The position numbers and the translations under genes were made by a program. A stretch of DNA of 64,000 bases from Cyanophora paradoxa CCMP329. Taxonomy: Eukaryota; Plantae; Glaucophyta. Location: assembly GCA_004431415.1 (NCBI GenBank), contig QPMI01000125.1:9428-73427 (forward strand), read 5' to 3'. The notes under the pieces were generated by a model. That model was not told where the DNA came from, did no database searches, and was given only the letters and a program-made list of their open reading frames with translations. Each line of letters begins with the position of its first letter. Position 1 is the stretch's first letter. Of the stretch, positions 27,990 through 64,000 are shown piece by piece.

Positions 27990-28020
<31 letters not shown>

Positions 28021-45343: not shown

Positions 45344-45360
45344 AAAAAAGGTCTATATAT

Positions 45361-45925: not shown

Positions 45926-45996
45926 AGCGGGGAAATTTTCGGACGGGGAGAAAAATGTCAGGCAATCTCTATTACGATTTTCCCTTTGAGTTGAAT

Positions 45997-46425: not shown

Positions 46426-46764
46426 GGGGCCAGGGGGGCCCCTGAGGGTGTACCCCCGGCCCGAGACTCGACCTTCGGCGGACGCACTCGGGCGATTTCC
46501 GTCAGGCCGGCTCCCTTTTTCTGCCTTCGGTCCAACGCTAAATTTGGCTTTTTTCAGGCCAGTTGGCAACGTTTTCCGTTGCGAACTAGACCGCGAAAAA
46601 AATCGCCCACAAAACCGCGGTCCGCCGCCATTTTGGCTCACTCTTGAAACGGGTTCGCCGCCTTCTCTCAGCCCAAGGAAACCCCGCCTCTCCGAATTTT
46701 CACAAGTCCGCCCTCACAGTCACCTCACGTTTTGCCTTTGCTGATTTCTTTTCCCTTTGCGCAG

Positions 46765-47832
46765 ATGTCGATTCCCGCTGAGCTTGCCGAGGACTTCGCC
46801 TTTGTCCAAGCAACGTGGGCTAACTCCGGTGGCACTCAAGGGGCTACCCCTGAGATGGAGCAGCGCGCCGACGCTCTGGGGTACATCTACAATTATGCCA
46901 TCTTACGCGCCACTGGCCCCGAAGTGCAACTTCTCCCCAAGTCCGCCTTCACGTCCAAGGCCAAGAAATCCAAGTCCAAGCAACCCAAGCCCGAGCCCCC
47001 CGTCGACGTGCCCCCGTCCCCGGCTGGGTCAAGACCGCCAACGGCTGGGGCGACCCCAAGCTTTTCGCCGAGTCTGCTGCCGAGACGCTCGCCTGGGCCT
47101 ACCCCCTCAAGTCTTCACGAATTACCCCCCTCCGTCATCGTCGTCATCTGCCCCTCAGCCCGTCGCCGAGCCCGCCCCGAGCCCGCCGATGACGCCAAGT
47201 CCGAGGCCTCTGACGTCGAGTCTGACATCAACGACTTCATCGACTTTGACGTGCCGATTCCATACGACTCTGAGTCGTCTTCTGACTCTGAAGGCGACAA
47301 CGAAAACCCGACTCGCAAGCGCCGCATTATCAAGACCAAGTCAATCGTCAAGAAGAAGTTCATGGAGACTACGTCATTCACCGACAACTCCGAGCGCGTC
47401 AAGGACCCCGCCAAGGCACACGAGAAGGACTTGAAGCTCGGCGCCGGCATTGCCCGTTCTCGCGTGACGTCACACTACAGCGAGCGCCTGACTCAGCACG
47501 TCAAGACCATTGAGAAGCGCGTCCTCTGCAACGAGCTCCGCAAGGAGTTGGAGCGCAAGCGGCGCCACGAGCGCCTTGTCCAGTACCAGATCAACAAGGC
47601 GCGGATCGCCGAGCGCAAGCAGAAGGAGGCGGCCGAGCTCAAGGCGCGCATCGAGGCTCAGCAGCAGCGCGAGGCAGAGGCGGCAGCGGCCTTGGCGGCG
47701 CAGCGCGAGCGCGAGCGGCAGGACTTGGTGCAGGCAGCGCAGTCCCTTCCCCGCATTCCCCTTAAGTCGGCGCCCGAGGGCCTCATTGAGTTGGTTTCCG
47801 ATGACGATGACTCTGACTTTGAGATGCTGTAA
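46765..47832 (+). CDS. Viral hypothetical protein with Pro-rich/acidic middle and C-terminal coiled coil
   Basis: Intron-less ORF of ~355 aa from MSIPAELAEDFAF..., with a coherent charged-helical C-terminus. Confidence 0.8.
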   Translation: MSIPAELAEDFAFVQATWANSGGTQGATPEMEQRADALGYIYNYAILRATGPEVQLLPKSAFTSKAKKSKSKQPKPEPPVDVPPSPAGSRPPTAGATPSFSPSLLPRRSPGPTPSSLHELPPSVIVVICPSARRRARPEPADDAKSEASDVESDINDFIDFDVPIPYDSESSSDSEGDNENPTRKRRIIKTKSIVKKKFMETTSFTDNSERVKDPAKAHEKDLKLGAGIARSRVTSHYSERLTQHVKTIEKRVLCNELRKELERKRRHERLVQYQINKARIAERKQKEAAELKARIEAQQQREAEAAAALAAQRERERQDLVQAAQSLPRIPLKSAPEGLIELVSDDDDSDFEML

Positions 47833-47903: not shown

Positions 47904-48022
47904 CCTGGGACTTGGGACTTGGGACTTGGGACTTGGGACTTGGGACTTGGGACTTGGGAAGAGTTAGACTCAGGGTCTGGGCCCAGAATCTCTCTGGATC
48001 TGAGAGTTTGCCGCGCCAAGTC
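47904..48022 (+). repeat. (GGGACTT)7 cassette 2
   Basis: cct-(gggactt)x7-gggaagagttagactcagggtctgggcccagaatctctctggatctgagagtttg. Confidence 0.95.
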
Positions 48023-48337: not shown

Positions 48338-48484
48338 TGACTTGTCTGACAAATTTCTGATCCTGGAGAAAGTCTGGGCCGGGACCTGGGTTTCAACTCT
48401 TCCCAAGTCCCAAGTCCCAAGTCCCAAGTCCCAAGTCCCAAGTCCCAAGTCCCAAGTCCCAAGTCCCAAGTCCCAAGTCCCAGG
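48338..48484 (-). repeat. (GGGACTT)11 cassette 3, inverted relative to cassette 2
   Basis: Reverse complement: cct-(gggactt)x11-gggaagagttgaaacccaggtcccggcccagactttctccaggatcagaaatttg. Confidence 0.95.
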
Positions 48485-48505
48485 TTTTTCTGAACCTAGG
48501 GCAAA

Positions 48506-48870
48506 ATGGCCCTGCTCCGGTGCACCGACTCGCAAGACGTCGCCTACAACGTCCTGGTCAACTCGGACGTACCCCGAGTGCCTTGGAGTTTCCCTGGAGA
48601 GTGGACAGGGACAGGGTGAGCAAGACGTTTGGAGGGCGCAAGCACTACCTCTCCCAGCTGATCCTCGGGAAGTCGCCACGTGGACGCTACGTGGAACACA
48701 TCAACGGCAACCCGCTGGACTACAGGAGGGAGAACCTGCGCTGGGCATCAATGTCGGAGATTCGCAAGAAGAGGAGGGGGTACGCCAATTTACAGGAGAA
48801 GAGCGAGGAGATTCGGGAGATGATGGAGGCGACACAGGTGCTAATGCAGCTTAGCCAGTCTAGACGCTAG
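48506..48870 (+). CDS. HNH-family endonuclease-like protein (one frameshift near the 5' end)
   Basis: YLSQLILGKSPRGRYVEHINGNPLDYRRENLRWASMSE resembles the phage HNH pattern VDHINGxxxDNRxxNLRW. The first conserved Asn is Tyr and the final His/Asn is missing, so it may be inactive. Confidence 0.75.
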
Positions 48871-49672
48871 TGGTGTGAATCTTGGTGTCGTACTCGCGAC
48901 CGACCGTTTCCCAGGCCACGTAAACTTCGGCTCCGGCGCCTGGCGCTGTCGAGTTGGTAGTCGCAGTCGTGTAGTCCGCCTCTGCCTCAATTAGTTCGGC
49001 CATGAGGGTAGAGCCCACGACCATTCCAGAGGTAGGCATTCCGGCGATGTTGTTGTACAATTTGAAAGTGAATTTCGTGAAGAGGAGCCGGGGCCAGACC
49101 TGGGTACGGGGATTCGAGGCGCCGTATGAATAATCGGTACCCGAGGCGCCGCCCGTGGTGGCATTCGTCATCATCTCCTTTGCGGTCATCTTCCAGAGGT
49201 TGTACATCTCAAAGGGAACGGCCTGCGTGGTCTTGTGTGTGGCATCGATGAGGGCGCCATCTAAATGCGTTTTGATGTTCGGATTCGCACCATTCCCGAA
49301 TTTGCGAGTGAGGGCGGTGTTAGCGGTGAACTTGAGTTCGAGCACGCGAATGGCGGGCCGATCAGGCACAGAGGGCTCTATCTTTTTCAGGAGGCCCGAG
49401 AGCCAGAGCGCCTCCGCCTCATCCGCGCTCACGCCCGAGTCGATGTCAAAGTACACGTACACGGAGCAGGAGGCGGGATTCTCGAAATCGTTGGAGGTGA
49501 CGCGCAACATGACGGGATTCTGGACCCTCACGGTGAGCGGGGTGGCGTAGTTTCCGTCCCACTCCACCTTGTCCGTCCCTGCGTTGGCCACGTTCCCAGC
49601 GTTGCCGTAGAAATCGGGGACGATCGAGCCGGCAGACACGGTCTTCACGATGGTGGCCGAGGTGGTCGGCAT
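48860..49672 (-). CDS. Viral beta-rich putative virion protein, paralog A (270 aa)
   Basis: Clean ORF that aligns in several blocks with the neighbouring gene. Confidence 0.8.
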   Translation of the reverse strand: MPTTSATIVKTVSAGSIVPDFYGNAGNVANAGTDKVEWDGNYATPLTVRVQNPVMLRVTSNDFENPASCSVYVYFDIDSGVSADEAEALWLSGLLKKIEPSVPDRPAIRVLELKFTANTALTRKFGNGANPNIKTHLDGALIDATHKTTQAVPFEMYNLWKMTAKEMMTNATTGGASGTDYSYGASNPRTQVWPRLLFTKFTFKLYNNIAGMPTSGMVVGSTLMAELIEAEADYTTATTNSTAPGAGAEVYVAWETVGREYDTKIHTTSV

Positions 49673-49695
49673 TTTGCGACCTCAAATGAGAAAGA

Positions 49696-50375
49696 TTATC
49701 CGTGAAAGAGGGTGATGTCGCCACCGATGTTCATGACGCGGGCCCCAGGCACAGAGTCAGCGTCGGTGCCGTACGCGTAGGAAATCGAGCACTCACGCAG
49801 CTCCGCGCAGAGGCTGGCGCCCGTGCTGAAGTGGGGCTGGTCGGCGGCGTAGGAGAGGGGGAAGACCTGGAACCTGAAAAAGGTGAAGGGGAAGCGGGGT
49901 AGAGTCGAGCCGCGTGGGTTGCCGCCCGTGTAGAGGGCCCCAGGGTCGCGGGACTTGGATTGAATTTCGTGAAGAGCACGTCGCCCTTGAGCGTACCCCT
50001 CATCTGGTAAGTTCCCGTACCCGGAAGATTCGAAGAACTGGGGTACCGGTTCACGGTGGGGCCGTACCCCGTCTCCCTGAACTTGACCTCGAGACAGCGC
50101 AAGACGTTGGCAGTGGCCGTGGCAGGTGCCACCTTTTTCACGAGTCCTGATTCGTGCAGCAGCTCGATAACCTCTGCGCTGAGGCTCAGAGGGTCGAAGA
50201 AGAGCTGGTAGGAATAAATCTTGGGCGTGGCGTAGGCGTTCTGAACGACCTGAATCACGACGGGATTCTGCAGAAAGACGTCGACGTAACTGCCGGAGGG
50301 TATGCGTGCGAAATCCTTGGTGTTGTTGCCAACGTCAAGTGAGCCGCTGAGGGTCTGGTACCAGTTGGAAGTCAT
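49696..50375 (-). CDS. Viral beta-rich putative virion protein, paralog B (frameshift at ~49898)
   Basis: Restoring one C in a C-run gives ...LYPRFPFTFFRFQVF...GASLCAELRECSISY...ITLFHG-stop, which matches paralog A. Confidence 0.78.
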
Positions 50376-50414
50376 TTACCCCGGGGCAGATATTTTTTCG
50401 GATCGTAGAGGAAA

Positions 50415-52555
50415 ATGCCCCGCTTCGTATTCGTGAAAAAGCAGGTGGTGCAGGCTCCGCAGTATGGCGTGGAGCCGATCTCGCTGACTGTGGGCAGGCC
50501 CCAGGTGCGATCGGGCTCCGTGCTCAACAACGGGAACAGTACGTACGGCTTTCAGCTGAACTGGGTCGCGGTCACCAACGCCGTCAAGTACAAGGTGTAC
50601 AGGGCGACCAGCATCAACGGCCCCTGGGATCTCGTGGCCACGGTGAATGCGCCAACCGTCACCTACACGGACTCTCCCTTTAGTTTGGGGGCCCAGCGAC
50701 TCTACCGCGTGGCGGCGGTTCGCGAACAGGGCAGCAGCAGCACGGGCTCTGATGGCAAAGCCCCGCCCACAACCTACGCACAGTCGCTTCTCTACACCCA
50801 CGAGGGTGCCATGAGCAATTACATTCTCTTCCAAGGCATAGGCGGCTTCAGCCCGCAGATCGAAGCCTACACCACGCTCACGACCGCCACGGCCCAGACC
50901 TACGGCGATTTTATTGCCGGGGGCGGCCCCGCGTCTTCGGGCTTCCCGAAACCCGCCATAGTCGTCACAATCAACTGGGTGGCCATGGAGGGCGCGGACT
51001 CGATTCGAATTTACAGGAACGGTACGCCAATCGGATTTGCGAGCAGTGCCCTGTCTACCTCGTACATTGACGATAGCACTGCTCTTACGTGGGGCACGGA
51101 ATACTCTTACCAGGTGGCCGGCATCGTGGGCGGTGTCGAATACGACAAGTCCGATCCGCTCCTGGTCTGGACTATGCCAAACGCCCCACGAACGTGACGG
51201 CATCAGCACCCAACGACCAGCAGCAGCCTGTCAGCCTCAGCTGGACTGCGTCCACGGGAGCGACGGGATACAAGATTTACAGAGACGGGGCCTACCTCAC
51301 AGACTCCGCGACCAACTCCTACAGCGACACGACCACCGTCTGGGGTACAGGGTACGAGTACCAGATCTCCGCGACGAACACGGGAGGGGAGGGGCCGAAG
51401 AGTATTGCGGCGTACGTCACCACGGACCCGGGGGCGCCCACTGGGCTCACTGCAACCCCCGCGGCGGGGGCAGCACAGCCTGTTGTGCTCGAGTGGTCGG
51501 TGCCGGTGACGGGCGTCACCGTCTCCTACAACATCTACAGGGGTGGCGTGTTCCTTGCCAGCGACACGAGCAGCCCCTTTTCGGACACAACGACCGTTTA
51601 CGGAACCACTTACACTTACACCATCAAGGGCGTCAACCAGATCGGCGAGGAAGGCCCTCAGTCCTCGTCTGCCAGTGCAACAACTGCAAACGCTCCTGTT
51701 TTGGGTACATTCTCCTACACCGGGGCCGACCAGACTTTCGTAGTACCAACGGGGACTGTGGCTGTGCGTGTCATCGTATGGGCGGCCGGGGGTGGAGGCG
51801 GAGAACGCGCAGGTACGGGGGTCCGTGGAGGCGCGGGTGCTTGCGTAGTTGGTACATTGGCTGTGTCCTCGGGGGAGACGCTCATCCTTGTTGTTGGATG
51901 CGGCGGCCCAAAGGGTGTATCGGGGACTGCCACTGCTACCGTCTACGGAGGTGGTGGAAGGGGCTGGAGCCATAGCGTCGATCCGGAGTACAAAAACGGC
52001 GCCGGTGGTGGTCGTTCTGCAATTCAGCGCGTTGCAGGGACCGACTTGGTTGTTGCAGGGGCCGGAGGTGGGGGTACATGTGATTCGAATGGCGGCGGGG
52101 GAGTAGGCGGGGGGTTGACCGGTGGTGCGGCTGGGTTGGTTGGAGTAACCGGAGAGATACCGGCTCAAGGAGGCACCCAAACCGCTGGCGGAGCCGGTGT
52201 TGTGGCCTCAGGGGCCAGGCCCAGCAACCCGGGAACTTTGCGCCAAGGTGGAGAGACTGGGCCTGATTCAAGCGGCTACAGGTTCGGTGGTGGTGGTGGT
52301 GGTGGTTACTTCGGTGGAGGCTCTGGGTCCAGCAGGAGCGGAGTGTCAGAGAACCCAATAGCAAGAATGTTTGGAGGTGGCGGTGGCTCGAGCTACATAG
52401 GAAACTTGACGGATGCTACGGTGTATCCTGGGTCCGGCCAGGTGGCAGGAAATAGCGGAGACGCTCACTACGCAGCAGGCATTGGTAGGGGCGGCAACGG
52501 TGGCTCGTCTTTCAGCGACGGTGGCAACGGTCGAATTGTGATACTCGCGGTGTAG
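50415..52555 (+). CDS. Fibronectin type III repeat + glycine-rich domain protein (ORFs 50415-51197 and 51089-52555 joined by a frameshift at ~51186)
   Basis: About four FN3 units (LSWTASTGATGYKIYRDG...YSDTTTVWGTGYEYQISATNTGGEGPKS), then FSYTGADQTFVVPTGTVAVRVIVWAAGGGGG...GGNGRIVI, a phage/virus-type glycine-rich domain. Confidence 0.88.
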
Positions 52556-52575
52556 TTATTCCTAGTTGTTCCAGA

Positions 52576-53634
52576 TCAGCTCGCCAGTGCCGCTACCTGG
52601 TCTTTGAGAGTTTGAACTTCTTGTGAAAGTTCCTGAATTGCCTTCAACGACAGGGAAATGAGCCTGTCGTAGTTTACCCCGAGAAATCCATCCGCGTTCT
52701 CGAAAACGAGACTCGGGAAGACGCCTTGGACTTCCTGTGCGATGAGACCGTAATCCGTTTTCGAACCCCCGAGGATGTGTTCTTCCAGGTGAACGACACG
52801 GGATTCAGCTGCAGCAGAAGAGGGAGAATGCCCGACATGCTCGCGACATTTTCTTTCAGGCGGCTATCGCTCGACGAGTTTGTCAGGTATCCTTGAGCAT
52901 CCGAATAAACGGCTCGGTTTCCATCGCCCGTGAGCGTCGAGACGATGAGCCGACCCGTGATGCCAACGCCGACGGTTCCGCACAGCAGTCGTTCGGTGCC
53001 GTTGTTTCTCAAGGATAGACCAGAGCTGACGCTTCCGCTATCAACGATTGAAGTGTTTGCTATGCTTAGGCCATTAGTAGGGCCTTCGATTGCCGAGGTA
53101 AATAGAGTACCTGTAACACCAACGCCAAGAGTCCCACAGAGGAGTCTATCGTTTTCGTTGTACTTTATAGCTACGCCTGAACCACCGCCATTTATGTACG
53201 GTGACGTTCCGGTAATTTGCAGCTTATCGTCCAATGTAACGATGCCCGCCAAGTTTGAAGCCCCGCTCACCCTAAGCCCCCCACCACGTTTGCTCCGCCT
53301 CCTTGCACATACAGAGCCGCATTCCCCTCCCCGTTCACAGTCCCATTAAAGGTCACCTGATTCGTGGTGTACCCGCTCCCGTCCCAGGCCCCGTTCGTGA
53401 CGGTGAGCCTCTGCGTCCTCACGCGCCCCGGCACGGCCGACCCGCCCTCCCGCGTGCGCATCTTGTCGCAGCGCAGCTCGCCGACGCGGACGAGGTCGGC
53501 CTCGGAAAAGGGGACGGCCGTGGCGTTGTAGGGGCCTCGGTGGCCTGGTTTCCGAGGGTGGTCTCCTTAATCGTGTGATCGCCCTTGTGATTCACGCTGG
53601 CAGCATAGGTAAATAGAGGGACAGCGACCGACAT
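52576..53634 (-). CDS. Fibre/spike protein with C-terminal peptidase S74 intramolecular chaperone (several frameshifts)
   Basis: SSDSRLKENVASMSGILPLLLQLNPVSFTWK...DYGLIAQEVQGVFPSLV...GVNYDRLISLSLKAIQELSQEVQTLK is the typical S74/ICA motif set. There are two internal repeats (ENDRLLCGTLGVGVTG / GTERLLCGTVGVGITG). Confidence 0.9.
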
Positions 53635-53658
53635 TTTTGGATTGCATCAGAAAATCGA

Positions 53659-56600
53659 TTACATAAGCAGCTTGCCGATCGCGGTCCAATGAATAAAAAG
53701 CTGGACAATTTGGGTGGGCGTGACCGTCATTCTGGGTTGGAATCTCACTTTAACTGTAAAGCCAGTGTGACTCACCGCCGTGACGTTGGCCCCGTAGAAA
53801 TCGACATCCGTGCTGCCGCCGGGATTGATGTCGAACGAGGGGGTTACGTTAATAACCGGCGTTGGGTTTGCTGGGGTCCCCAGTCCGCCTCCAGTGTCGT
53901 ACGCCTGTCCGAATGTAATGTTGAACGTCACCGTGTATGTTGAATTGATGTTAAACTCCGTGTACGCAGCGTAGGAGTGGAAGGACGTGCCGTGCGTTAT
54001 GTACGCATCCATGTTCACGTTTCTGTGCCCGTGGCTGGTGAGCGAGTACTCTGTGTGACTGTGCGTAGAGGGTGGGAAGGAAGTGGGTCGGTCGATGACA
54101 TTATCCCAGTACACATTGTGACTGTGTGTAGAGGGGGGAAGGTAAGTGGCTTGCCCGTTACGTTGTCCCAATCCACGGAGATGTTCGTCAAGTCCGGGGC
54201 CGTCCAGTCGCTGATCTGAGAGATGGTGTGCTGGTGGTCTGCGTGGGGATACGTACTCGGCTTCCCGTGATGCTATCCCACGCCCACGTTGTTGGTATCA
54301 CGGGTATCGTCGGCCTCCCGCTGAGATCTGCATACGCCCCCGTGTGTGCCACCGTCGCCAGCTGCGGCACGGCAACGCCCACGGTGCTCACGGCCTGGCT
54401 CGCCCCCGGCGCCATGTGCCACTCGTAGTTCTGCGATGCAAACACGGGCTGGCCTGGCTCGGGCGCCCAGTACTCGATGCCTTTGGCGATCTTCTTGGTG
54501 TATGGTGCTGCAGGCCTGTCAACCAATTTATCGACGTAGGCCTTGGGTACCAGCCAGTTTGCCTTGGGGCTCTGCGAATTGATCCCGTTGTCTATGAAGG
54601 CCCCGTAATTCCTGAAGGCCTCGGCCTCCCACCAATCCTGCATGCGGAAGGTCCCGGGAATCTCGAGGCGCGAGTTGGCGTCCGCCAGGCGGGCCACCTG
54701 CGCCCCTCCGTTCGACGAGACGCCCGAGTGACGGATGGCCGAGCCGAATTCGCGCCTTAGGGCTTCGATGTGATTGATCCTGTTGAGGCCCTCCTGGTAG
54801 ACGGCAATTAAGACGCGCTTCCGCCCCTTGGTCTCCTCCTTTATCATCTGCTTCAGGTCGCGCATAAGTCGACTCAGGGCGAGCGAAGTCGACCCGAAGC
54901 CCTCCTGCATTTTAACGGTGAGCTGGGAGAGGAAGAGCACGGTCGCGCGATCGATTTCGAGCAGGGTCTTCTGGTCCTTGGGGGTACGGTAATCGTTGAT
55001 GCTGTTGTCGAGCGCGCGAATGAAGGCCTGCAGCTCCTTCGGCTCCTTGATTTCGTTTAACCGCAGCTCCTGGGCCAAGAGCGAGGCCATTTCGCGCGCC
55101 TCCGAGGGGTCGTACACACCCAAAAATCCGGAGCCCAGCTCGCCCTCCAGCCGATTAATTCGGTTGCGCAGCTGGCTCGCCTCGTCGCCCCACGTCTCGA
55201 CGCCCCAGTCGTAGATCTGTTGCGAGAGCTCCGCGATGAACTGTATGGTGTCGGTCGCCCAGTCGACGGGGTACTTGAAAAAGTTCTTCACGATTTCTTC
55301 CGCGCTGCGCCCGTTGATGATATCCACGATCACCTGCGCGATGGCGCCCGCGAGGATGGACAGGCCAAGTCCGCCCACCGTGCCGATCCTCATTTTCGTG
55401 AGGGCGCTCAGGGCGGACGACATGCCCGTCTGAAGGCCAAAAGAGCCGACCGTCATGATCATCTGATCGCGGAACGTATCGAAGAACTCGGCCTCCCCTA
55501 TCTTGCCCTGCGAGAGCGCCTGGTAGGCCGAGAGCAGGCCGCCCGCCGTCGCCAGCCCAAGGCCGGCCGCCGCCGCGCCCGCCCGCCGCATGGCCCGCGA
55601 GCCCGTACCCCCCAGCCCGGCGCCCACCAAGTCGATGCCCGCCCCCTGAAATAAATCGGCTGCCCCGAAAGACATGCCGTCGTTGTTCGCCGTACCCATC
55701 GCGGAGAAGAGGGTCTCTGCGCTGAAGGCCTCCTTGGCCACCCCGGGCCGCCTGGCCCTCGGGCGCCCCAGGAAGGCGTCGCGCTGCTCTTTGGTGGTGA
55801 ATCGCTCGAGGTCGAAATCGGCAAGGGCGTCGGCGGTGGCGCGGTTCCAGTCGCCGTAGGGCATGAGGGCGTTGCGCAGAATAACGTCCGAGTCGCCCAT
55901 CACGCGCCTGTCGAGCGTCTGAAATACGCCCTCGGAGGGCAGGCGAGCCGTGCCCGGGCGCATTTCCTCTACGGAAACGTCGTCCCTTTCCGCGAGGGTG
56001 ATGTCGTCCGGGCTGGCCGAGCCCACGCCCGCGCCCTCGTCGGCGTAGGCCCTTCCCCTCCTTTTTAACAGTTGATTGGCCTCCCGTTTCAATGCTTGGT
56101 ACTCTGTCTCTACCTTGGTCTTTCTTGCCTCTTCCTCTGCCGCCTTGCGCTCTGCGATCTTCCGCCTCTGCTCTTCTATCTCGGCGTTGCGTCTCGCCGC
56201 GTTCTCCTTGGCTTGCTGCTTCCGCTCTTCGATCACCCTGTTTGCGTACTCCTTGTCCGCTTGGGCCTTTCTGTAGCGCTCCTCGATCTGACTCTTGGCC
56301 TCGTCTCCTCTCTTCCTTAGATCGCCCATGAATGCCGTCGTATCTATGTGAATCTTGTATTTGGCGGGTGGGTGCTCACGTTTGAAGGCCTCCAGATCGC
56401 GCACCATGGCATCGTACTGCGCGAGCCCCTCCGCTGGAATGATGGCTCTTCGCATTTCCCAAAATTTGCTCAGCTTGCCCACGTAATCGACCATGGAGAG
56501 GTACGCGCTCTGTGCGCCCGCGCTCACCGTTTTCGGATTGGCTCGCAGCTCTGCCAAAAACTCCCCCTTTTGTATCCGGTACAGTGACCATTCGAGGGCT

Positions 56601-58760
56601 CCCCGCCACAGGCTCGCTTCCGTCCGCAGTTCTCTGTGCATCTCCTCCACGTCGCCGTATGCTATCCAGATGGCATCGCTGATGGGCCTCTGAACAGCCT
56701 GACGCTCAAAGTTTTTCCACTTCTCATCGGCCATCTTTCTCCTCAGTTCTTCGGCGTCTTTCTGACCCCTTCCCGTCAGCTGATCCATAACGTAGCTAAA
56801 GTCGCGCATGTTCTCTTCCATGGCGCGGAGCCTGTCCCCCGATGCATTTCCTTCTTTCAGTCTTTTGAGCTCCGAGCGGTAAAAATCCATCTGCGCCCCC
56901 CTGAACGTCTCCAGTCGTCGCTTACGCTCCGCTACCTTCGGCTCCTCCAGCCGTGCAAATTCCTCGTCTGATGCAGTTTGCATTGCCTTCAGTCGTTCCT
57001 CTTCTGTCTTGGCAGCTGCCTCCTCGTCCGCCCTGCGCCGCTGCTCTAACGCGTCGAAGAGGGCCCTCTGATCCTCGAGCGTGAGGCCAATGAGCTCTTC
57101 CACCTGGTCGCTCCTACCCAGCCGCGCGAAGGGCAGCCTCTCGGCGGCCGGCCTTGGATCGGGCCTTGGCGTCGTCTGCGTCTCCATTGTGCCCCTTGGC
57201 ACAGCCGTCCCTATCCTCTGCAGCTCGGCCGTCAGCGTTTTCACTTGCTGCTCTAGGTTGAATCGTATGGTGGATGCGAGCCCCTCTGCCTTCTGCCTCT
57301 CCTGTTCTCGCAGTTCGAGCTGCCTTAAATCCTCCTTTGCTTTTCTGGCTTGCTCCTCCGCTGCCTTTCGCTCATCGTCCAGCATCTTTGTGCCCTCTTC
57401 GACCTCGTTTGCTATGTTGACCTTGTTTGCTATTTCCATGTCCAGTTTCTCCAGCTCGGTCCTTGCCTGCTCCTTTGCCTCCCTTATCGCGTTTTCCACG
57501 ATCCTATCGGCCTCTCTCTTCCGGATCTCGGCTTTCTCCTCGGCCTCCAGGGATTTCTCAATTCTATCGCTCGCCTCTTTCAAATCGTCCGCTATCTTTT
57601 CTCGGCCGCTGTCCTCATTTCGTTAAATTGCCGCTCCCTTGTCTTCAGCTCCTCTGCCAGTATTCTCACCTGCTCGTCTGAGTAAACGATCGTTTTGTTA
57701 TCTTTCTGCAGCTCTGCAATGTCCCTTTCGTACGCCTTCCGATCCCTGTAGTACTTTGCACCGCCTGCAATCAGGGCCGCGCCGAAGATTCCCGTTGTTG
57801 TACCAAGGATCGGCACGAGCGTACCCCCTCCGCCGCTCTCTCCGCCCGAGCCGCCGCCACCCGAGCCGCTGCTACCCCGCCCCCTCCACGGGCGTGCCAC
57901 TGGAGCCCCCTCCGCCCCCGTGCCTGTACCCCCACCCCGGTGCCTGTACCCCACCCCGGTGCCTGTACCCCCACCTCCCGTGCTTCCGCCGCCCGTACCC
58001 CCACCCGGAATCGCGCCCGGCACCTTGGGCCCGCCGATGATGTCGTCGTACAGGTGGCGGTGCGCCCAGTCCGTGATGTCGGCCTTCACATGCGGGTGCT
58101 TGACGAGGGCGTACCTCTCGTCGTGGAAGTGGTCCTTCAGCGCCCAGTTCTGCGTCTTCGCCCAGTCTGAGCGATCGGGGAGCACGTCGGGTGCCGTTGG
58201 GATGCGGCCCCCGCCCGTCGTCTCCGGCGTCTCGCCCGTCCTGTCGGCGCTCAGGGCGCGGATGTTCACCTTGAAGTGGTCGAACCACGCGAAAAACTCC
58301 TCCCTGTCGCGCCTGTACTGCTCGGGCTCCATGCTCGGCAGCGCCTGGCGGCTCCAGTAGATGTGGCGCAGGGGCCCGCGATGCGCTCGAGTGCGTTGTA
58401 CCCGGGCCTCACGTCCCCCTCTGCGCCCTTTAGAGTCAGTTTCACGAGGTTCAGGGTGGCGTCTTTCGCTGTAACGGAGTTTGCGATTTTCACGTCGGCC
58501 GCCCTCTTAATAATGTTCCAGTCCACGCCCGTCTCGGTCGTGACGCCCCAGAGCCCCTTGATAATTGCGGTGAGGTCACCGTAATCGTCCAAGGTACCGA
58601 CGGACGTCAGGAAATCGCTGTAGGTCGCGCCCTTGCGCAGCCTTATCTCGTCCGCGTAAATTCCCCTCACGCTCAGGCTCCCGTCTATCGCGAAGGCGCC
58701 GTTCAGCACCTCGTCCGGATTCGGGATGGCCATGCGCCAGGGGTCGTCGAGCATCGACAT
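53659..58760 (-). CDS. Very large (~1700 aa when rejoined) coiled-coil / fibre-like protein with tail-repeat and H-type-lectin-like C-terminus
   Basis: Abutting ORFs 58266-58760, 57592-58332, 54188-57583 and 53659-54171 can be linked by single-base indels. Features: long EKR-rich coiled coil, Gly/Ala hydrophobic segments, WDSITGKP / WDNVTGKP / WDNVIDRP..STHSH repeats, and a terminal VTF...PVINVT...VTAVSHTGFTV...IHWTAIG. Confidence 0.8.
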
Positions 58761-58784
58761 TTTATCCGCGAGAGAGAAAAATTA

Positions 58785-59259
58785 ACTAATGCTCCGCGTC
58801 CCACGTCCACTTCAGCTTGCCGCTCACCTCGCCCGTTGTCCAACGGCCCACGGGCACCTGCCAGAAAACGTCGGCGTAGGGGTAATCGGCCTGATAGTGA
58901 TCTGCTCGTCACGCAGCCAGCGGTAGGCCTCGGAGGCGTCGCGTATTTTCGGCTCCCAGTATTCCCCGCCCGTGCCGTTCGGCAGCGAGTACCCCTCCCT
59001 TGCTACCCGTACCCTGTAAACGTGCTCGCCCGTTAGCGTGTCTACCCCCTGTACTCGAATTCTACGATTAAGGCCAAGTCCTGCCATGCGCTCTCGCCGA
59101 GACGGATGTGACTGAGGCTGTGCAGCAGCCCGTATTTAATTGGACCAGAGGCGGTTACAAGATCGACTCTGTAAGTGAGGGGCGAGGGGTAGCCAGGCAC
59201 GCCCGTAAAGGTGCGCGTCTTGACGCCCGAGCCCTTTCGCGGAATATGATCAGGCGCAT
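58785..59259 (-). CDS. Viral hypothetical protein (frameshifted)
   Basis: ATG at 59259 with the shared upstream motif. Fragments GVKTRTFTGVPGYPSPLTYRVDLV... and VDTLTGEHVYRVRVAREGY... lie in adjacent frames. Confidence 0.6.
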
Positions 59260-59280
59260 TTAAGGGGGGCCTGCGAAAAT

Positions 59281-59730
59281 CTATTTCGCAAAGGCCCAGA
59301 GGCCGAAGTTCTTGACGATGAAGGCGTTGTTCTTCTTGGTGGCGCCCGTGATGTCGGTGAAGCGCACGCGCAGCTCCTGGAACTTGTCGTACGCGACGTA
59401 GTTCGGGCGCACGGCCATGGGCACCTCGAACCAGTAGAGGATGGTGTTCTCGAGGCCGTCGTGGCCCCACGTCGGGATCACGACCTTGTTGATGCACGTG
59501 TTGACGTTCGAGATGGTCGTGACGTTCAAGTCGGGCACGTCCATCAGCAGAACGTTGACGGTTTTCGCGGCGGTGGGGTCCGGAATCGCGGTCGTGTCCA
59601 GCTCCAGGTAGACGCCCTTGATCTGCAGCGTGTCGATGTCGGCGGGGATCTGGTTCAGCCTGAGGCGCCAGAAGCCCTCGGAATCCTGCGTCTCTCCGTT
59701 CGACTGGACGTAGAGGTTGACGCAGGACAT
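59281..59730 (-). CDS. Putative minor capsid / penton-like single jelly-roll protein (149 aa)
   Basis: N-terminal VNLYVQS...FWRLRL...IDTLQIKGVYLE and C-terminal FQELRVRFTDITG...FGLW follow the strand pattern I associate with polinton/PLV/virophage pentons. This is pattern recognition only. Confidence 0.55.
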   Translation of the reverse strand: MSCVNLYVQSNGETQDSEGFWRLRLNQIPADIDTLQIKGVYLELDTTAIPDPTAAKTVNVLLMDVPDLNVTTISNVNTCINKVVIPTWGHDGLENTILYWFEVPMAVRPNYVAYDKFQELRVRFTDITGATKKNNAFIVKNFGLWAFAK

Positions 59731-59752
59731 TATTTAGGAAGGGGCCTGAGAA

Positions 59753-59940
59753 ATTATGCCTTCCTCAGGCCGTTGAGGAGGTAGGGCCCACGAAGTAGTA
59801 GCCCGCGAACTGCGCGGCGAGGATCCGCACGAGGTAGTAGCGCGCGGGCGACATGTAGGCGACCGCGCCGAGGGTCAGCAGGCTGCCCAGGTAGCGGAAT
59901 CGCTGGTGATATCATCGAGGCTCGGGAGCATGGACGACAT
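59753..59940 (-). CDS. Small hydrophobic (membrane) viral protein, frameshifted
   Basis: MSSMLPSLDDI.. joined to RFRYLGSLLTLGAVAYMSPARYYLVRILAAQFAGYYFVGPYLLNGLRKA-stop. Confidence 0.55.
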
Positions 59941-59962
59941 TGTTAAGGGCCCATTCAGAAAT

Positions 59963-60317
59963 TTACTTGGGCATGAAGAAATTCCTGACGCGCTCTCCCT
60001 CCTCGTGCAGCGCCCACTGCAGCCGGTCGATGACGGCGGCCATCACGGGCGGGCTCGCGCGGGGTTCTTCGCGTACGCCCGGGCGTCCTCTGCCATCTGG
60101 GGTGGTACTGCTCGACGCGCTTGGCGTAGCTCGCGATGGCGCGGCGGGTGCACCGATCCAGGTCAGCCGCCATTTCCGCCGGTGCCTTCGGCTGCTGCTG
60201 CTTCTTTCGCGCGTAAGTCCTAAGAAGCCAAGGGTAGGCCGCGGTGCTGCTGCTGGAGTTGCTGGGCGCTGGAGCCTCTGCGCTGGGGGCTGGTGTCGCG
60301 GGAGTCTCCATTCCCAT
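59963..60317 (-). CDS. Viral hypothetical protein, frameshifted
   Basis: MGMETPATPAP...AIASYAKRVEQYHP.. followed by VMAAVIDRLQWALHEEGERVRNFFMPK-stop. Confidence 0.55.
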
Positions 60318-60322
60318 GTTCT

Positions 60323-60589
60323 CTAGAAAAAAACGGGTACCGGTTTGCGTCATCTGAATGTCGACGTGGTGCGGCCCTATGTTCTGCGTGCTCTCGCGCC
60401 TCTGCTGCTCCGGTGGGGGTTCGGGCTCGGGCTGTCCGCGGCGGACGACCCTAAGGGCCGCCGCCTTCAGGGCGCCCAGCACTGTGTTGGGGCCGACGCG
60501 CTCCGTGCCGCCCAGCAGCTCCGAGACCAGGAAGAGCGCGCCGCAGACGACGGTGATGATGTCCGAGTGGGTGCATTCCCCTGGAACAT
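60323..60589 (-). CDS. Small single-TM viral protein, frameshifted
   Basis: MFQ.. joined to SDIITVVCGALFLVSELLGGTERVGPNTVLGALKAAAL. The shared upstream motif is present. Confidence 0.55.
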
Positions 60590-60614
60590 TTTCGCGGGCC
60601 CGTCAGATTTATTA

Positions 60615-61630
60615 TCCGCTACCCTTCCCCTTCCGCGCCCCTTGCCTTTGCCGCGCCCTCGGCCCTGGCCCTCAGGTCGCCGATTTCCGCGGCCTGCGGC
60701 GCGAAGCGGGGATCGTCCGCCTGGCCGGCGTCCGCCTGGAAAATCGTGAAGAGGTACCCGTCCGTGTTGTTGTCGGTGTTGTTCGTGTTTCGCGCGTGCG
60801 ACCACTCTTTCAGTAAATCGCGCTCTGCTTGTCGGCAGCGTCTTTGAGAGTACTCCTGCAGCTTGCTCGCGTAATTTTCCTCTGGGATCAGCGACGCAAG
60901 GACGTGGGCGGATCTTTCCCCATGCCTATCTTCTCTTCCGTCAGCATGCGCTCGAGCTCTGCGATTTCCACCATCGTATCGATGCTCGGTTGAGGCCCTG
61001 CCTCTGCCTCTTCTGGTCTACGAGGCGCTGCCCGCCGCCGTGAATTTCGCGGACAGAATTTGGTGCAGCCGCTCGTACACCGTCGTGGTGCTCGGCTCCT
61101 TCTCCTTCAGCAGCACCACCCAGTCGTAATTCGCCCACAGCACCTGCAAATTCGATATGTGATCGATCGTCACCAGCACGTGGGCGTGCAGCGCGCCGTC
61201 CGTCGGCCCCACCTCCACGCCCCTTGCACGCGATTCCGATGATTGCGTTGCGTACGTGTCGTCCTTGTACTTGCCGTTCTCTTCTTCATATTGAAGCGTA
61301 TGAACTTGTAGAATTCTGCATCCGAGAGCACCTCTGCGAGGCTGTCGCGCAGCGCCGCCGCCTCGAATTCTCGCGCCTCTCCCAGGCGCTTGTGGGTGTT
61401 GAAGAGCACCAGTAGCGCGACTGGCGCGCCTGTCGTATGTCGTACCGCGTGCTTCCGTCGGGATTCTTTTTGTTGAGGATGAAGACCGACCGCCCCGTCT
61501 CGCTGATTTCCGTGATCACCTTCTCGAGCGCCTCCAGCCGTTTGCCTGCGCCGCCTGCAGTCCCGTTTCGCCTTCTCTATGTCTGCTTTACCTCTTGCGC
61601 GTCCGCGAAGGTTGCCATTAAATCTTCCAT
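60615..61630 (-). CDS. HUH-superfamily endonuclease, paralog 2 (multiple frameshifts; 3' end uncertain, 60810 or ~60615)
   Basis: Motif I-like SRY(L)VLFNTHK, motif II GVEVGPTDGALHAHVLVTIDH, motif III-like LIPEENYASKLQEY..K. Confidence 0.75.
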
Positions 61631-61681
61631 GCTCGGCGCCACGATTTTCGCCTTTCTGATTTTCGACTGCGCAGAGTTGGC

Positions 61682-62600
61682 TCGATGACGGACGATCCGA
61701 AGTCAGCGGCCGTATCCTTTGCCTTTTTCGTGGTCTTTGGTTCGGCCCGCCGAGCACGCTCTCGACCATGTGGTCGCGCGTCTGCTTGGAGACGGTGGCC
61801 GTGTCGCCCCTCTTTCGCCTCTGCAGCCCAAGATCACGAGCAGGCCCTTGTTGCCGAGCAGCGTGACGCACTTCTGCAGAGCCACGAGTTTCTGGGCGAC
61901 ACCGTGGGCACCTGCGCCGGCTTCTTGTCCTTGATGAGGGGGTACGGCTCCTGGCCCTTTTTCTTTCCTTGCCGTTTTGCTTGGCGCCCACGCGTTTGCC
62001 TTCTCTATGACCGCGACGTACTCTTCGTACACGCATCCTTCCTCGCCTGCGCTGCTCCCTCGCGGCGATTTTCTCTGGCGTGTTGGCCCCTTGGCGCTCG
62101 GCACGGGCGTGGCTCGTACATGAGGCGAGGCAGCGGTAGCAGATTGCGGATTTCTGCGCGCTCTGGTACGTGCGCGTATGGCGCGCAGTCGCTCCTCGGG
62201 GAGTTTATCGTACTCGATTTCGCTGTGGATGCTCCAGAGGGTCGCGGCTCGTGGTATGATTTCATCGAGCAGCATTGGAGCATCTTGAACTTCTTTTCGG
62301 TGCCCGAAGCTTGATGTAATCGCATATGCCTCTTCTGCTGCTGGACATATGCCGTCCTCGCCCTGAACCAGCACGTATCGCTTCGGAATCTCAACGACGG
62401 GCGTCTCGAGCTCGTCCACCCGGTATGCGGCGCGTTTCCTTGCCTTCCCTTTCCCTTCCCCTTGCCTTGCCCTCCGCTTAGGCTCCGGCTCCTCTCTCTC
62501 CTCCTCTTTCCTCCGACTCGGGACGGGGACGTGGGCTCCTCTTCCTCTGACTCGCTCGAGCTCTCTGGCTTCTTCTTGCGGCCTCGGGCTTCGGAGGCAT
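61682..62600 (-). CDS. Viral hypothetical protein with basic/acidic N-terminus (frameshifted)
   Basis: ATG at 62600 with the shared upstream motif. Reads MPPKP(R)GRKKKPESSSESEEEE...AAYRVDELETPVVEIPKRYVLV. Confidence 0.6.
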
Positions 62601-62631
62601 TTATTGGACACGAGAAAAATTTACACGAGCT

Positions 62632-63449
62632 TTACAGCGCCCGTCTCGAGGGCTCTACCGTCTTCGTAATGTACAGCTGCAGCAGATCCTTAAGGTTGCT
62701 CTGCGGCAGCATTTTACGTCTACGTGCATCTGCCTGGCGGTTTCTCGCTTCCTGTAGCCGTCTCCTTGCCCGTCCACTGCATGCCGAGGGCGTCCTTTCT
62801 CCGTATCGGCCGCACCGCGTCTTCTGGTACTCCTCCCGAACAGTCGTCCTTGTAGAAATTCGGCAGGCCGCCCTGCCCCTCCGTTTGCATGAACTTGATG
62901 AGGAAATCCGACGCCTTCTTGCCGTCGAATTGCACGCGCGAGTAGTGCACCAGCGTGAGCAGGATGTGCGCGTGGAGCCGCCCCGACCGCGGCCCGTACT
63001 CGATGCCGATGTTCGCGTTGCCCTTCTCCACGTGCGTGTCGTACTGGTCGGACTTGAAATCGAAGCCTTGGGGTTCGCCTTGTCGGGGTACACCCCATCT
63101 TTATGCACCGCGCCAGCTGCCTGTCGTCGTAGAAGAGGGCCTCCAGCCCCTGTGAAACGCGTCCTGCACCTTGGAGCCCTCTCCCCTGCTCCGCGGCTTG
63201 TAGTTGGTCTGGATGGTGATCATGAAATTCGACTCGCGCTGCGGCCGATCCTCCCCGTTCAGTTCCTCACGGGCGCCGCGTCAGCACCTTCTGGAACCAC
63301 GTCTTGTCGGGCGCCAGCACCTTGTCGTTGATGTTGCCCACCACGATGTGCGTCTCTACCGGGAGCGGCCGGAGGCGTCCATGCGGAGGTGAGGGTTCGG
63401 TGCCCGGCTTGCCTGTTTGCTGCCACGCCCTCGCGATGAGGTTGAGCAT
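62632..63449 (-). CDS. HUH-superfamily endonuclease, paralog 1 (multiple frameshifts)
   Basis: Motif I RESNFMITIQTN (~63205-63240), motif II GIEYGPRSGRLHAHILLTLVH, motif III LPQSNLKDLLQLYITK (YxxK). Confidence 0.82.
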
Positions 63450-63519
63450 GTCAGACCAAGGCCTAGAAAATTTCCGAGGCTGGGGTGAGCTTCCACGTGG
63501 GGCCCCGGGTACGTCCGCA

Positions 63520-63562
63520 CCTCACCTGAGCATCACCTGAGCCTCACATGAATCACCTGAGC
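63520..63562. promoter_or_regulatory. Four TCAC(C/A)TGA boxes in a divergent intergenic region
   Basis: cctcacctgagcatcacctgagcctcacatgaatcacctgagc lies between the HUH gene (-) and the Zn-ribbon gene (+). The regulatory role is inferred. Confidence 0.45.
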
Positions 63563-63678
63563 AACGCCTTCTGCAACAAGTGCTTCCTCACTTGCAAGTG
63601 GGACCCACTCTCCTCTGAGAAGCCAACCTGTTGGTTCTGCAGGGGAATAGCTCAGCTGCAGTACGAGGACTCAGAGGA

Positions 63679-64000
63679 ATGGCAGACTCTAACGAAATCG
63701 ATCTCCTCCTCCGAAACTTCGAGCAGATCCAGCGCTACGGCGCCATCCTTCACGACGAGGGGGACCCAGACTCGACACTCCGGCACCGTACCCGCGCGCC
63801 GCCGCCGCCATCGCCAACTCCTACCTCGGGCCGGAGAGCGCCCCCGCAAGCGCAACGCCGCACCCAAGGCCCCCAAGGCGAAGCCGCTGTCCCCTGCGGA
63901 AATTGCAGCTCTACCGCCCTCGTTGGTGTTCACCTGGATGGGGATCTGGTTTGCCAAGGCTGCGGTCTGGTCCTGGATCTTTATTATCCGGACCATCAAC
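63679..64000 (+). CDS. TFIIB-type zinc-ribbon protein, candidate VLTF3-like late transcription factor (partial, frameshifted)
   Basis: MADSNEIDLLLRNFEQIQRYG..., then in a shifted frame CGNCSSTALVGVHLDGDLVCQGCGLVLD (63895-63978). Not listed in the ORF track. Confidence 0.65.
   Translation, partial: MADSNEIDLLLRNFEQIQRYGAILHDEGDPDSTLRHRTRAPPPPSPTPTSGRRAPPQAQRRTQGPQGEAAVPCGNCSSTALVGVHLDGDLVCQGCGLVLDLYYPDHQ

What the first reader, a model, noticed from the sequence alone, without database searches (positions are those of the whole stretch)
48490..63470. Shared WWWTC(T/G)-N12-18-ATG motif before most viral genes
Examples on the coding strand: ttttct-14-ATG (48506), ttttct-16 (49672), atatct-12 (50375), ttttcg-14 (50415), ttttct-14 (53634), ttttct-14 (58760), ttttcg-14 (59259), atttct-18 (59730), atttct-16 (59940), aaatct-15 (60589), ttttct-12 (62600), ttttct-15 (63449). 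An A-run usually precedes the ATG. This looks like a compact viral late promoter, comparable to the AT-flanked TCTA late motif shared by CroV and mavirus. It could be read by the element's own VLTF-like factor or by a helper giant virus (inference). It also independently fixes the true start codons.
Basis: partly seen in the sequence, partly recalled or inferred. Interest (0 to 1): 0.72.

Follow-up and report, generated by a model that had tools for sequence, protein, structure and literature searches.

The report
Shared gene-start box in algal virus
A short AT-rich TTTTCT box sits 12-18 bases before the start codon of each of twelve tightly packed genes of a virus-like element in a glaucophyte alga's genome; it likely acts as the element's own promoter signal, possibly read with the help of the viral transcription factor (VLTF3-like) encoded next door.

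Summary
A blind Gibbs search finds the same box, about AAWTTTTCT(G/C), in all 12 upstream regions, 12-18 nt before the ATG. It carries 10.2 bits, against 7.2±0.3 for shuffled upstreams. The bare hexamer alone is not specific: 121 sites in the element, 23 with an ATG at that distance.

The box marks gene starts, not gene ends. It heads four starts that have no co-oriented gene upstream, and it is absent at both convergent gene ends. It precedes replication-type (HUH-like) genes as well as fibre-type genes, so "late" is not supported. Only 1 of 12 sites has TCTA.

The neighbouring gene, at 63679 and running off the window, is VLTF3-like and lacks the box. The pair of a short and a long HUH-like gene beside VLTF3, in 60% GC DNA, suggests a mriyavirus-like virus of Cyanophora paradoxa. 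That is a lead, not shown.

Most frameshifts in 58.0-63.5 kb are assembly indels. Transcript 5' ends could not be mapped and the contig evidence conflicts. The likeliest reading is a compact promoter/initiator (about 0.6).

The parts
48482..48492 (+). Box AGGTTTTTCTG, 14 nt before ATG 48506 (HNH-domain gene). It lies directly after the (CCCAAGT)n array, with no co-oriented gene upstream.
49688..49698 (-). Box TAATCTTTCTC, 16 nt before ATG 49672 (270-aa protein, multi-copy family).
50387..50401 (.). Two overlapping boxes in a 39-nt divergent spacer: AAAAATATCTG (-), 12 nt before ATG 50375, and TATTTTTTCGG (+), 14 nt before ATG 50415.
53648..53658 (-). Box TCGATTTTCTG, 14 nt before ATG 53634 (fibre-like gene with Peptidase_S74 chaperone domain). 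The TAA of the upstream ORF abuts the box.
58774..58784 (-). Box TAATTTTTCTC (best score, 17.7 bits), 14 nt before ATG 58760. This is the start of a probably single gene of about 1,700 codons running to 53662, if three frame breaks are assembly indels (inferred).
59273..59283 (-). Box TAGATTTTCGC, 14 nt before ATG 59259. It starts with the stop codon of the 149-aa gene.
59748..59758 (-). Box CATAATTTCTC, 18 nt before ATG 59730 (149-aa protein).
59956..59966 (-). Box GTAAATTTCTG, 16 nt before ATG 59940 (small gene, about 61 codons).
60604..60614 (-). Box TAATAAATCTG, 15 nt before ATG 60589. One contig of a run guessed to be RNA ends at 60600.
62612..62622 (-). Box AAATTTTTCTC, 12 nt before ATG 62600 (long gene with a C-terminal HUH-like domain). 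The true TAA stop of the upstream gene (62621-62623) overlaps the box, leaving a 20-nt intergenic spacer.
63464..63474 (-). Box GAAATTTTCTA, 15 nt before ATG 63449 (285-aa HUH-like gene, first of the leftward block). It is the only site with TCTA.
63679..64000 (+). 5' part of a VLTF3-like gene with a TFIIB-type zinc ribbon; it runs off the window. No TTTTCT box lies upstream. A 4x TCACCTGAGCA tandem sits at 63522-63563.
60619..63449 (-). Two paralogous HUH-like genes: a short one (63449 to about 62621) and a long one (62600 to about 60619, with the HUH-like part C-terminal).
45932..45942 (+). Extra box GAAATTTTCGG, 13 nt before ATG 45955.

Best explanation
The AAWTTTTCT(G/C) box found 12-18 nt before each of 12 start codons is a real, non-random gene-start signal of a compact virus-like element, and it most likely works as a minimal promoter/initiator. 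On this reading (inferred), the AT-rich island in 60% GC DNA would set the transcription start in or just behind the box, so each gene would get its own very short leader, and transcripts probably run on into downstream genes because the spacers are only about 20-40 nt. The element encodes a VLTF3-like factor with a TFIIB-type zinc ribbon directly beside the block, under a different upstream region. I infer that this factor, together with the nuclear RNA polymerase II machinery, would read the box. The element is possibly a mriyavirus-like small relative of giant viruses; that group is described as lacking its own RNA polymerase. Shown: the motif, its spacing, its link to gene starts, the VLTF3-like gene, and the paralogy of the two HUH-like genes. 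Inferred: that it is a promoter, where the start site lies, which polymerase and factor read it, and the virus class.
For: 1. Statistics. A blind Gibbs search finds one box in 12 of 12 upstreams. Information is 10.19 bits against 7.20±0.29 (shuffled upstreams) and 6.19±0.32 (random-ATG upstreams). Position SD is 1.74 nt against 9.4. The association of WWWTCK with an ATG at 12-18 is 23 observed against 5.09±2.27.

2. Linked to starts, not ends. The box heads four starts with no co-oriented upstream gene: 48506, the divergent pair 50375/50415 that shares one AT core in a 39-nt spacer, and 63449. No box scoring 8 bits or more lies at the two convergent gene ends (about 48860 and about 52560).

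3. Compactness. With the short-read correction at 62652, the upstream HUH-like gene ends at the TAA that overlaps the box of gene 62600. The box plus its spacer therefore make up the whole 20-nt intergenic region.

4. Independent start codons. Gene models and 60-66% identical relatives begin at the motif-predicted ATGs 49672, 50375 and 63449.

5. A cognate-type factor. A VLTF3-like gene (Pfam PF04947, E down to 1.9e-23 in sibling copies) adjoins the block and has no box of its own.

6. Precedent. Class-specific AT-rich motifs close to the ATG are the rule in giant viruses, virophages and polinton-like viruses (PMC5294985 sections 3 and 8, read in full; passages of PMC8547959 and 10.1101/2022.07.28.501842).

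7. One weak hint on the start site. In run X1 (kind only guessed to be RNA) a contig ends at 60600 with no loose end. That is 4 nt behind the box and 11 nt before ATG 60589, and a contig of run X12 continues across this place.
Against: - No 5' ends were mapped.
- In run X3 (guessed RNA) a contig covering gene 63449 runs through its box to about 11 nt upstream of it. If that is mRNA, the box lies inside the leader of that gene.
- Contigs of X1 and X3 bridge gene junctions, boxes included, so read-through or longer transcripts exist.
- A distance of 12-18 nt to the ATG is too short for a TATA-type Pol II promoter.
- No relative with accessible DNA was found, so conservation of the box across diverged copies is untested.
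- The gene list is partly circular. Five of the 12 ATGs open only short frames in the window, because of indel errors.
Confidence: 0.6

Rival explanations
1. The box is the late promoter of a helper giant virus, so the element behaves like a virophage or polinton-like virus that is switched on only when that giant virus infects the alga.
For: It shares the general form of an AT-rich run plus a TCT core close to the ATG with the CroV/mavirus TCTA motif (PMC5294985 section 8; PMC8547959 passages). Polinton-like viruses and giant-virus insertions are reported for C. paradoxa (passages of PMC12220804 and PMC12344493).
Against: Only 1 of 12 sites has TCTA, and the 3' flank is G/C-rich. The element carries its own VLTF3-like gene. 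The box also precedes replication-type genes. Contigs of runs guessed to be RNA, labelled with the alga's own species, cover several box-bearing genes (the run kind is not on record). No capsid, packaging ATPase or integrase of the polinton-like kind was recognised in the window.
Confidence: 0.12
2. The box acts in RNA, inside the leader or inside polycistronic transcripts. It might work as a ribosome-positioning or reinitiation signal at a fixed distance from each AUG, or as a processing site.
For: The distance to the AUG is fixed at 12-18 nt. The X3 contig contains the box of gene 63449 and about 11 nt upstream of it. Contigs bridge gene junctions.
Against: In the 39-nt divergent spacer the two boxes overlap on opposite strands. 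That fits a shared DNA element better than two leaders that would each have to begin inside the other gene. The X1 contig stops behind the box of gene 60589.
Confidence: 0.12
3. The box is the 3'-end or polyadenylation signal of the upstream gene, and only seems linked to starts because the genes are packed head to tail.
For: The stop codon often abuts the box, and some sites read like AAUAAA (TAATAAATCT, AATAAATG). One X1 contig ends at 59241, 40 nt past the stop of the 149-aa gene and 18 nt past TTAAATG.
Against: The box is present at four starts with no upstream co-oriented gene, and absent at both convergent gene ends, where 3' ends must also form.
Confidence: 0.06
4. There is no function. 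The pattern is a by-product of AT-rich stop codons, an A-rich start context and composition.
For: The bare hexamer is common: 121 sites in the element. TAA or TAG stops supply part of the AT-rich 5' flank at tandem junctions.
Against: The TTTC core is near-invariant, with 11-13 of 13 aligned sites carrying the consensus base at each of its four positions. Information and positional clustering lie far outside both null sets. The box is present where there is no stop codon upstream.
Confidence: 0.03

Closest known systems
[quoted passage not shown]
   Same: A short core containing TCT, preceded by an AT-rich run, placed shortly before the start codons of many genes of a compact viral element (PMC5294985 section 8; PMC8547959 and PMC13196603 passages).
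   Different: Here the core is TTTC(T/G) followed by G or C; TCTA occurs in 1 of 12 sites. The downstream flank is G/C-rich. The element is 60% GC and has its own VLTF3-like gene. The box is not confined to structural genes. No helper virus is known.
Poxvirus late (and intermediate) promoters: T/A-rich core, spacer, TAAAT(G) initiator at the ATG, served by VLTF factors
   Same: A two-part layout of an AT/T-rich core, a spacer, then an A-rich stretch fused to the ATG (TAAATG at 50375, 59259 and 62600; AAAATG at 6 of the 12). A homologue of VLTF3 is encoded beside the genes (PMC5294985 section 3).
   Different: The core is about 9 bp, not about 20. The spacer to the A-run is longer than the 5-7 bp described. 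TAAAT is not universal. No viral RNA polymerase gene is seen in the window. The start site is unknown.
Mimivirus-type early motif AAAATTGA, also used by the polinton-like virus PgVV-14T
   Same: A virus-wide AT-rich octamer upstream of start codons, shared between a small element and the transcription system that reads it (10.1101/2022.07.28.501842 passages).
   Different: The sequence is different, and the distance to the ATG is much tighter here.
Mriyaviruses (Yaraviridae / 'Gamadviridae'), small relatives of giant viruses
   Same: For the element, not the motif: VLTF3 plus a HUH endonuclease, duplicated in gamadviruses as a short gene and a long gene with a C-terminal HUH domain; no RNA polymerase; unusually high GC (PMC11253617 passages; 10.1101/2020.01.28.923185 passages).
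   Different: Capsid protein, packaging ATPase, VLTF2 and RuvC were not seen in the 15.5 kb held by the window. The HUH motifs were read by eye only, with no Pfam or PDB match. For yaravirus the authors report no enriched intergenic motif, and the mriyavirus paper does not contain the word 'promoter'.

Membership tests
CroV/mavirus-type late promoter | TCTA tetramer core | tested here: not met
   1 of 12 sites (63449) has TCTA. The others are TCTG (5), TCTC (4) and TCG(G/C) (2).
CroV/mavirus-type late promoter | AT-rich flanks on both sides of the core | tested here: not met
   The 5' flank is AT-rich. Position +1 is G or C in 12 of 13 aligned sites, and the spacer is G/C-rich.
CroV/mavirus-type late promoter | Shared with the late genes of a helper giant virus | not testable with these tools
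   No giant virus of this alga and no host genome were available.
Poxvirus-type late promoter | TAAAT(G/A) initiator overlapping the start codon | tested here: inconclusive
   TAAATG at 3 of 12 starts and AAAATG at 6 of 12; the other three read AATAATG, AACAATG and TGACATG. The start site is not mapped.
Poxvirus-type late promoter | T-rich core of about 20 bp, 5-7 bp from the initiator | tested here: not met
   The informative core is about 9 bp. TC(T/G) to ATG is 12-18 nt.
Poxvirus-type late promoter | A VLTF3-family factor is encoded | tested here: met
   Pfam PF04947 at E 1.9e-23, 6.8e-15 and 1e-6 for P0037, P0036 and P0035. These are 60-74% identical to the window's ORF at 63679.
Mriyaviricetes (the element) | VLTF3 present | tested here: met
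Mriyaviricetes (the element) | HUH endonuclease with motifs I-III; in gamadviruses a second, long protein with a C-terminal HUH domain | tested here: inconclusive
   FMITIQTN, RLHAHILLT and LYITK were read by eye in P0026. The long gene's C-terminal part is paralogous (BLASTP E 3e-9 and 4e-4). There is no Pfam or PDB match, and the AlphaFold model is unusable (pLDDT 36).
Mriyaviricetes (the element) | Double jelly-roll capsid protein, packaging ATPase, VLTF2, RuvC; genome of 35-45 kb | not testable with these tools
   The element runs off the window at 64000. None of these was recognised in 48.5-64 kb.
Polinton-like virus / virophage (the element) | Double jelly-roll capsid protein, penton protein, A32-like ATPase | tested here: inconclusive
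   No family match for any candidate. Models of the 270-aa and 285-aa proteins failed. Only part of the element is held.

The most novel reading that the evidence does not exclude
The TTTTCT box is the DNA site through which a VLTF3-type factor steers the host's nuclear RNA polymerase II onto the genes of a small, polymerase-less relative of giant viruses that persists in many copies in Cyanophora. It would be the first promoter defined for the mriyavirus-like lineage, and a living model of how giant-virus late transcription worked before those viruses acquired their own polymerase. The roughly 20-nt junctions would serve as gene end and gene start at once.
Probability: 0.2. Interest if true: 0.75.

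Novelty: new member of a known kind. Interest (0 to 1): 0.5.

Why it matters
Conserved promoter boxes are how small DNA viruses and virophages plug into a transcription machine, so the box indicates who reads the genes. Here a GC-rich, multi-copy virus-like element of a glaucophyte has almost no relatives in public data, yet its genes look intact once assembly errors are discounted. One box precedes every gene of a 15-kb block, and a VLTF3-like factor is encoded beside it. If the element is mriyavirus-like, this would be a first candidate promoter for a group in which none has been reported in the papers I could read. It would also give a simple, testable pairing of one factor with one site. 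On the practical side, the box fixes the start codons in a stretch where gene callers invented introns to step over assembly frameshifts.

Tried and rejected
- Own genome: none is held, so other copies in the host could not be read.
- Relatives with DNA: none found. Searched IMG/VR with the 270-aa family, the 149-aa protein, the 1144-aa stretch and the VLTF3-like alignment, JGI metagenomes with two alignments, and phage records by tblastn.
- The two IMG/VR loci fetched with a back-translated pattern (L001, L002) are 31% GC chance hits. The best tblastn match was 34 aa at 38% identity, E 0.002.
- Protein relatives are confined to C. paradoxa gene models plus a few unnamed ENA/Logan contigs.
- Folds: both AlphaFold jobs gave unusable models (pLDDT 35.6 and 36.3), so no fold search was run.
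- The ESM Atlas gave only sub-threshold leads to tailed-phage hypothetical proteins (0.87-0.88).
- PHROGs, NCBIfam and PDB sequence searches added nothing beyond fn3, Gly-rich, Peptidase_S74 and HNH.
- RNA: no RNA holder is listed. Runs X1-X11 are only guessed to be RNA.
- In the second call the laid X1 and X3 contigs left 58000-59109 without cover. That is no evidence about expression. Contig depths cannot rank genes.
- No place was found where contigs of two studies stop together.
- Hairpins around the box were looked for by eye. They are present at 59259 and 59730 but not in general.
- An AT-island scan does not single out the boxes.
- A position-weight matrix alone is not specific in the AT-richer host part of the window.
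- Earlier notes of this scan held nothing on this genome or family.

Full report
THE REGION. Bases 48.4-64.0 kb of the window are about 60% GC and packed with genes. Most run leftward. The rest of the window looks like ordinary eukaryotic DNA, with an 80% GC stretch at 28-36 kb. No whole genome is held for the window. The 270-aa protein of 48863-49672(-) has 14 relatives in 5.8 billion proteins. Twelve are gene models of one protist and two come from unnamed ENA/Logan contigs. The sources name that protist Cyanophora paradoxa. Cluster sizes of 12-15 show a multi-copy family.

THE OBSERVATION. All 12 listed ATGs exist. Eleven carry WWWTC(T/G) at 12-18 nt; 49672 has CTTTCT instead. Aligned on the TC, the box reads about AAWTTTTCT(G/C)A. 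Each of the four positions of the TTTC core carries the consensus base in 11-13 of 13 aligned sites (the 13th site is 45955). A Gibbs sampler given only the 40 nt upstream of the 12 ATGs found the same sites in 12 of 12.

CHANCE CONTROLS.
- Information content: 10.19 bits, against 7.20±0.29 for shuffles of the same upstreams and 6.19±0.32 for upstreams of random ATGs of the element (100 sets each; no set came near the observed value).
- Site positions: SD 1.74 nt, against about 9 nt in both null sets.
- Without any gene list, WWWTCK followed by ATG at 12-18 occurs 23 times in the element on both strands, against 5.09±2.27 in 300 dinucleotide shuffles.
- TTTCK-N12-18-ATG occurs 41 times in the window, against 20.6±4.7.
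- The bare hexamer is not enough: 121 sites in the element, of which 98 have no ATG at that distance. In the rest of the window the association is weak (40 of 351, or 11%, against an 8.3% base rate).

WHAT THE BOX IS ATTACHED TO. It is tied to gene starts.
- Four sites head starts with no co-oriented gene upstream: 48506, directly behind a repeat array; the back-to-back pair 50375/50415, whose two boxes overlap in a 39-nt spacer; and 63449.
- No box scoring 8 bits or more lies at the two convergent gene ends near 48860 and 52560.
- At tandem junctions the upstream stop codon abuts or overlaps the box. With the extra C that short-read contigs carry behind 62652, the 285-aa gene ends, like its sibling P0026, at the TAA of GTGTAAATTTTTCTC. 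That leaves 20 nt between this stop and ATG 62600.
- Gene models and diverged relatives start at the predicted ATGs 49672 (MPTTS.., MPTTN.., MPATN..), 50375 (P0016, 95% identical over 146 aa) and 63449 (MLNLIARG..).
- By my map, the 12 boxes precede all recognisable genes of 48.5-63.5 kb. This holds only if the frame breaks inside 53662-58760, 52579-53634, 50415-52552 and 60619-62600 are errors (inferred). A possible 13th start lies at 60311.

THE FRAMESHIFTS ARE MOSTLY NOT REAL. I laid the contigs of four public runs on 58000-63520. All runs that cover a place agree on single-base insertions or deletions relative to the window. Twelve are listed and 59 more are not shown. One contig has 41 gaps but only 3 substitutions over 1.9 kb, and no contig supports the window's version at the listed places. 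For example, a C behind 60577 restores the frame just after ATG 60589. The genes are therefore probably intact, and T-run lengths inside the boxes may be off by one.

THE GENES.
- Family matches: Pfam finds an HNH domain (gene 48506), fn3 plus Gly-rich domains (gene 50415) and the Peptidase_S74 fibre chaperone (gene 53634).
- Large gene: the 1144-aa stretch 54191-57622 is rich in coiled-coil-like and Gly/Ala-rich segments. Its continuation carries KPxTFPPxxHxH repeats (weak PHROG hits).
- Unmatched proteins: the 270-aa and 226-aa proteins are paralogues. Neither they nor the 149-aa protein match any family.
- Gene 63449 (285 aa in P0026): it shows, by eye, the three HUH-endonuclease motifs (FMITIQTN, RLHAHILLT, LYITK).
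- Long gene 62600: its C-terminal part is paralogous to gene 63449 (E 3e-9 and 4e-4). No profile or structure search confirmed HUH.
- ORF at 63679(+): it runs off the window and is the start of a VLTF3-like protein with a TFIIB-type zinc ribbon. In other contigs its gene models sit next to the HUH-like gene (names g15773/g15774). It has no TTTTCT box. A 4x TCACCTGAGCA tandem lies 115-157 nt upstream instead.

WHICH VIRUS. Passages of the mriyavirus paper (PMC11253617) describe small relatives of giant viruses with the following traits:
- VLTF2 and VLTF3, which the authors consider diagnostic of kinship with giant viruses;
- a HUH endonuclease, duplicated in 'Gamadviridae' as a short protein and a long protein with a C-terminal HUH domain;
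- no DNA or RNA polymerase, hence an inferred nuclear replication.

The yaravirus preprint reports 57.9% GC, and up to 62% in that clade. The short-plus-long HUH-like pair beside VLTF3 in 60% GC DNA fits this picture. The capsid protein, packaging ATPase, VLTF2 and RuvC were not seen in the part of the element held here. I rate 'mriyavirus-like' at about even odds. Polinton-like viruses of C. paradoxa with phage-like fibres are also mentioned in print (PMC12220804 passages).

HOW THE BOX MOST LIKELY WORKS. It is an AT-rich island at a fixed, very short distance before each ATG. [quoted passage not shown] This is the layout of class-specific promoters of large DNA viruses and their satellites (PMC5294985 sections 3 and 8; PMC8547959; 10.1101/2022.07.28.501842). 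I therefore read it as a compact promoter/initiator, probably served by the VLTF3-like factor together with host Pol II (inferred). 'Late' is not justified, because the HUH-like and HNH genes carry the box too. The likeness to TCTA is slight, at 1 of 12 sites.

EVIDENCE FROM SEQUENCING RUNS. It is weak and mixed. No holder is on record as RNA. In two runs only guessed to be RNA, contigs cover 59241-60600 and parts of 61-63.5 kb and bridge gene junctions.
- One contig (X1) ends at 60600 with no loose end, 4 nt behind the box of gene 60589, while a contig of run X12 goes on.
- Another (X3) runs through the box of gene 63449 to about 11 nt upstream of it.

The first fits a start behind the box. 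The second would put the box in the leader. Contigs cannot prove either.

WHAT IS IN PRINT. I did not find this element or its box described.
- 'Cyanophora paradoxa' + 'endogenous viral' + 'virus' gave 5 papers.
- 'polinton-like' + 'Cyanophora' gave 3 papers.
- The species' genome paper has 0 occurrences of 'virus' or 'viral'.
- The mriyavirus paper has 0 occurrences of 'promoter'.
- The yaravirus preprint states that no enriched intergenic motif was found.
- A 2025 paper says giant-virus insertions of C. paradoxa were not yet well described (PMC12344493 passages).

These searches cover only the held library, and supplements were not read.

VERDICT. The motif is real and non-random, and it is a gene-start signal. 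It is most likely a promoter/initiator of a new, probably intact, multi-copy virus-like element that encodes its own VLTF3-like factor. The kind of signal is well known; the sequence, the host and possibly the virus class are new.

Noticed in passing
window 45842-45926 (+), 47904-47988 (+), 48366-48485 (inverted): Three copies of a (GGGACTT)n array (8-12 units), each followed by a conserved stretch of about 30 nt (GGGAAGAGTT...). The second and third form an 89-nt inverted repeat (89% complementary) around 371 nt that hold four ACGAGTAAAAAAG-like repeats. This is probably the element's terminus or a head-to-head junction of two copies.
   Followed up: partly
window 58000-63520: The window differs from short-read contigs of four runs by many 1-nt indels (12 listed, 59 more not shown; 41 gaps against 3 substitutions in one 1.9-kb contig). 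The apparent pseudogenes are therefore mostly consensus errors, and gene models here that call introns are suspect.
   Followed up: yes
window 63522-63563: Four tandem copies of TCACCTGAGCA (containing CACCTG) lie 115-157 nt before the VLTF3-like start codon. They may belong to a separate, box-less promoter for the factor gene.
   Followed up: no
window 60619-63449 (-): A short (285 aa) and a long (about 660 codons) gene share a HUH-like domain, adjacent to each other and to VLTF3. The mriyavirus paper describes the same arrangement for gamadviruses.
   Followed up: partly
window 53662-58760 (-): A probable single gene of about 1,700 codons. It has an N-terminal domain, a Pro/Gly-rich 20-nt tandem repeat (57915-57975), long charged helical stretches, Gly/Ala-rich hydrophobic segments and C-terminal KPxTFPPxxHxH repeats. 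It has no relatives outside this host.
   Followed up: partly
window 45955-47832 (+): Two ORFs between the first two arrays. The first has the TTTTCT-type box 13 nt before its ATG. GTGAGG at 46422 and a pyrimidine tract plus CAG at 46764 look like the borders of an intron joining them (read by eye only).
   Followed up: no
window 60324-60334 (-): GTTTTTTTCTA with ATGs 7 and 13 nt behind it, inside what I counted as gene 60589. If the T-run length is misassembled, TAG would end that gene here and a 13th box-bearing gene would start at 60311.
   Followed up: no
window 42990-43400 and 44012-44430: A direct repeat of about 400 bp, near-identical, about 1 kb apart. A 66-bp tandem pair at 45355-45485 also contains AGAATTTTCTA.
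   Followed up: no
window 28000-36000: A stretch of about 8 kb at 77-80% GC with very long open frames in several frames on both strands.
   Followed up: no
window 59241-59983: In two runs guessed to be RNA, the contigs with the highest word depth lie over the 149-aa gene and the small gene upstream of it. Contig depth cannot rank genes, so this is only a pointer for a proper expression analysis.
   Followed up: partly
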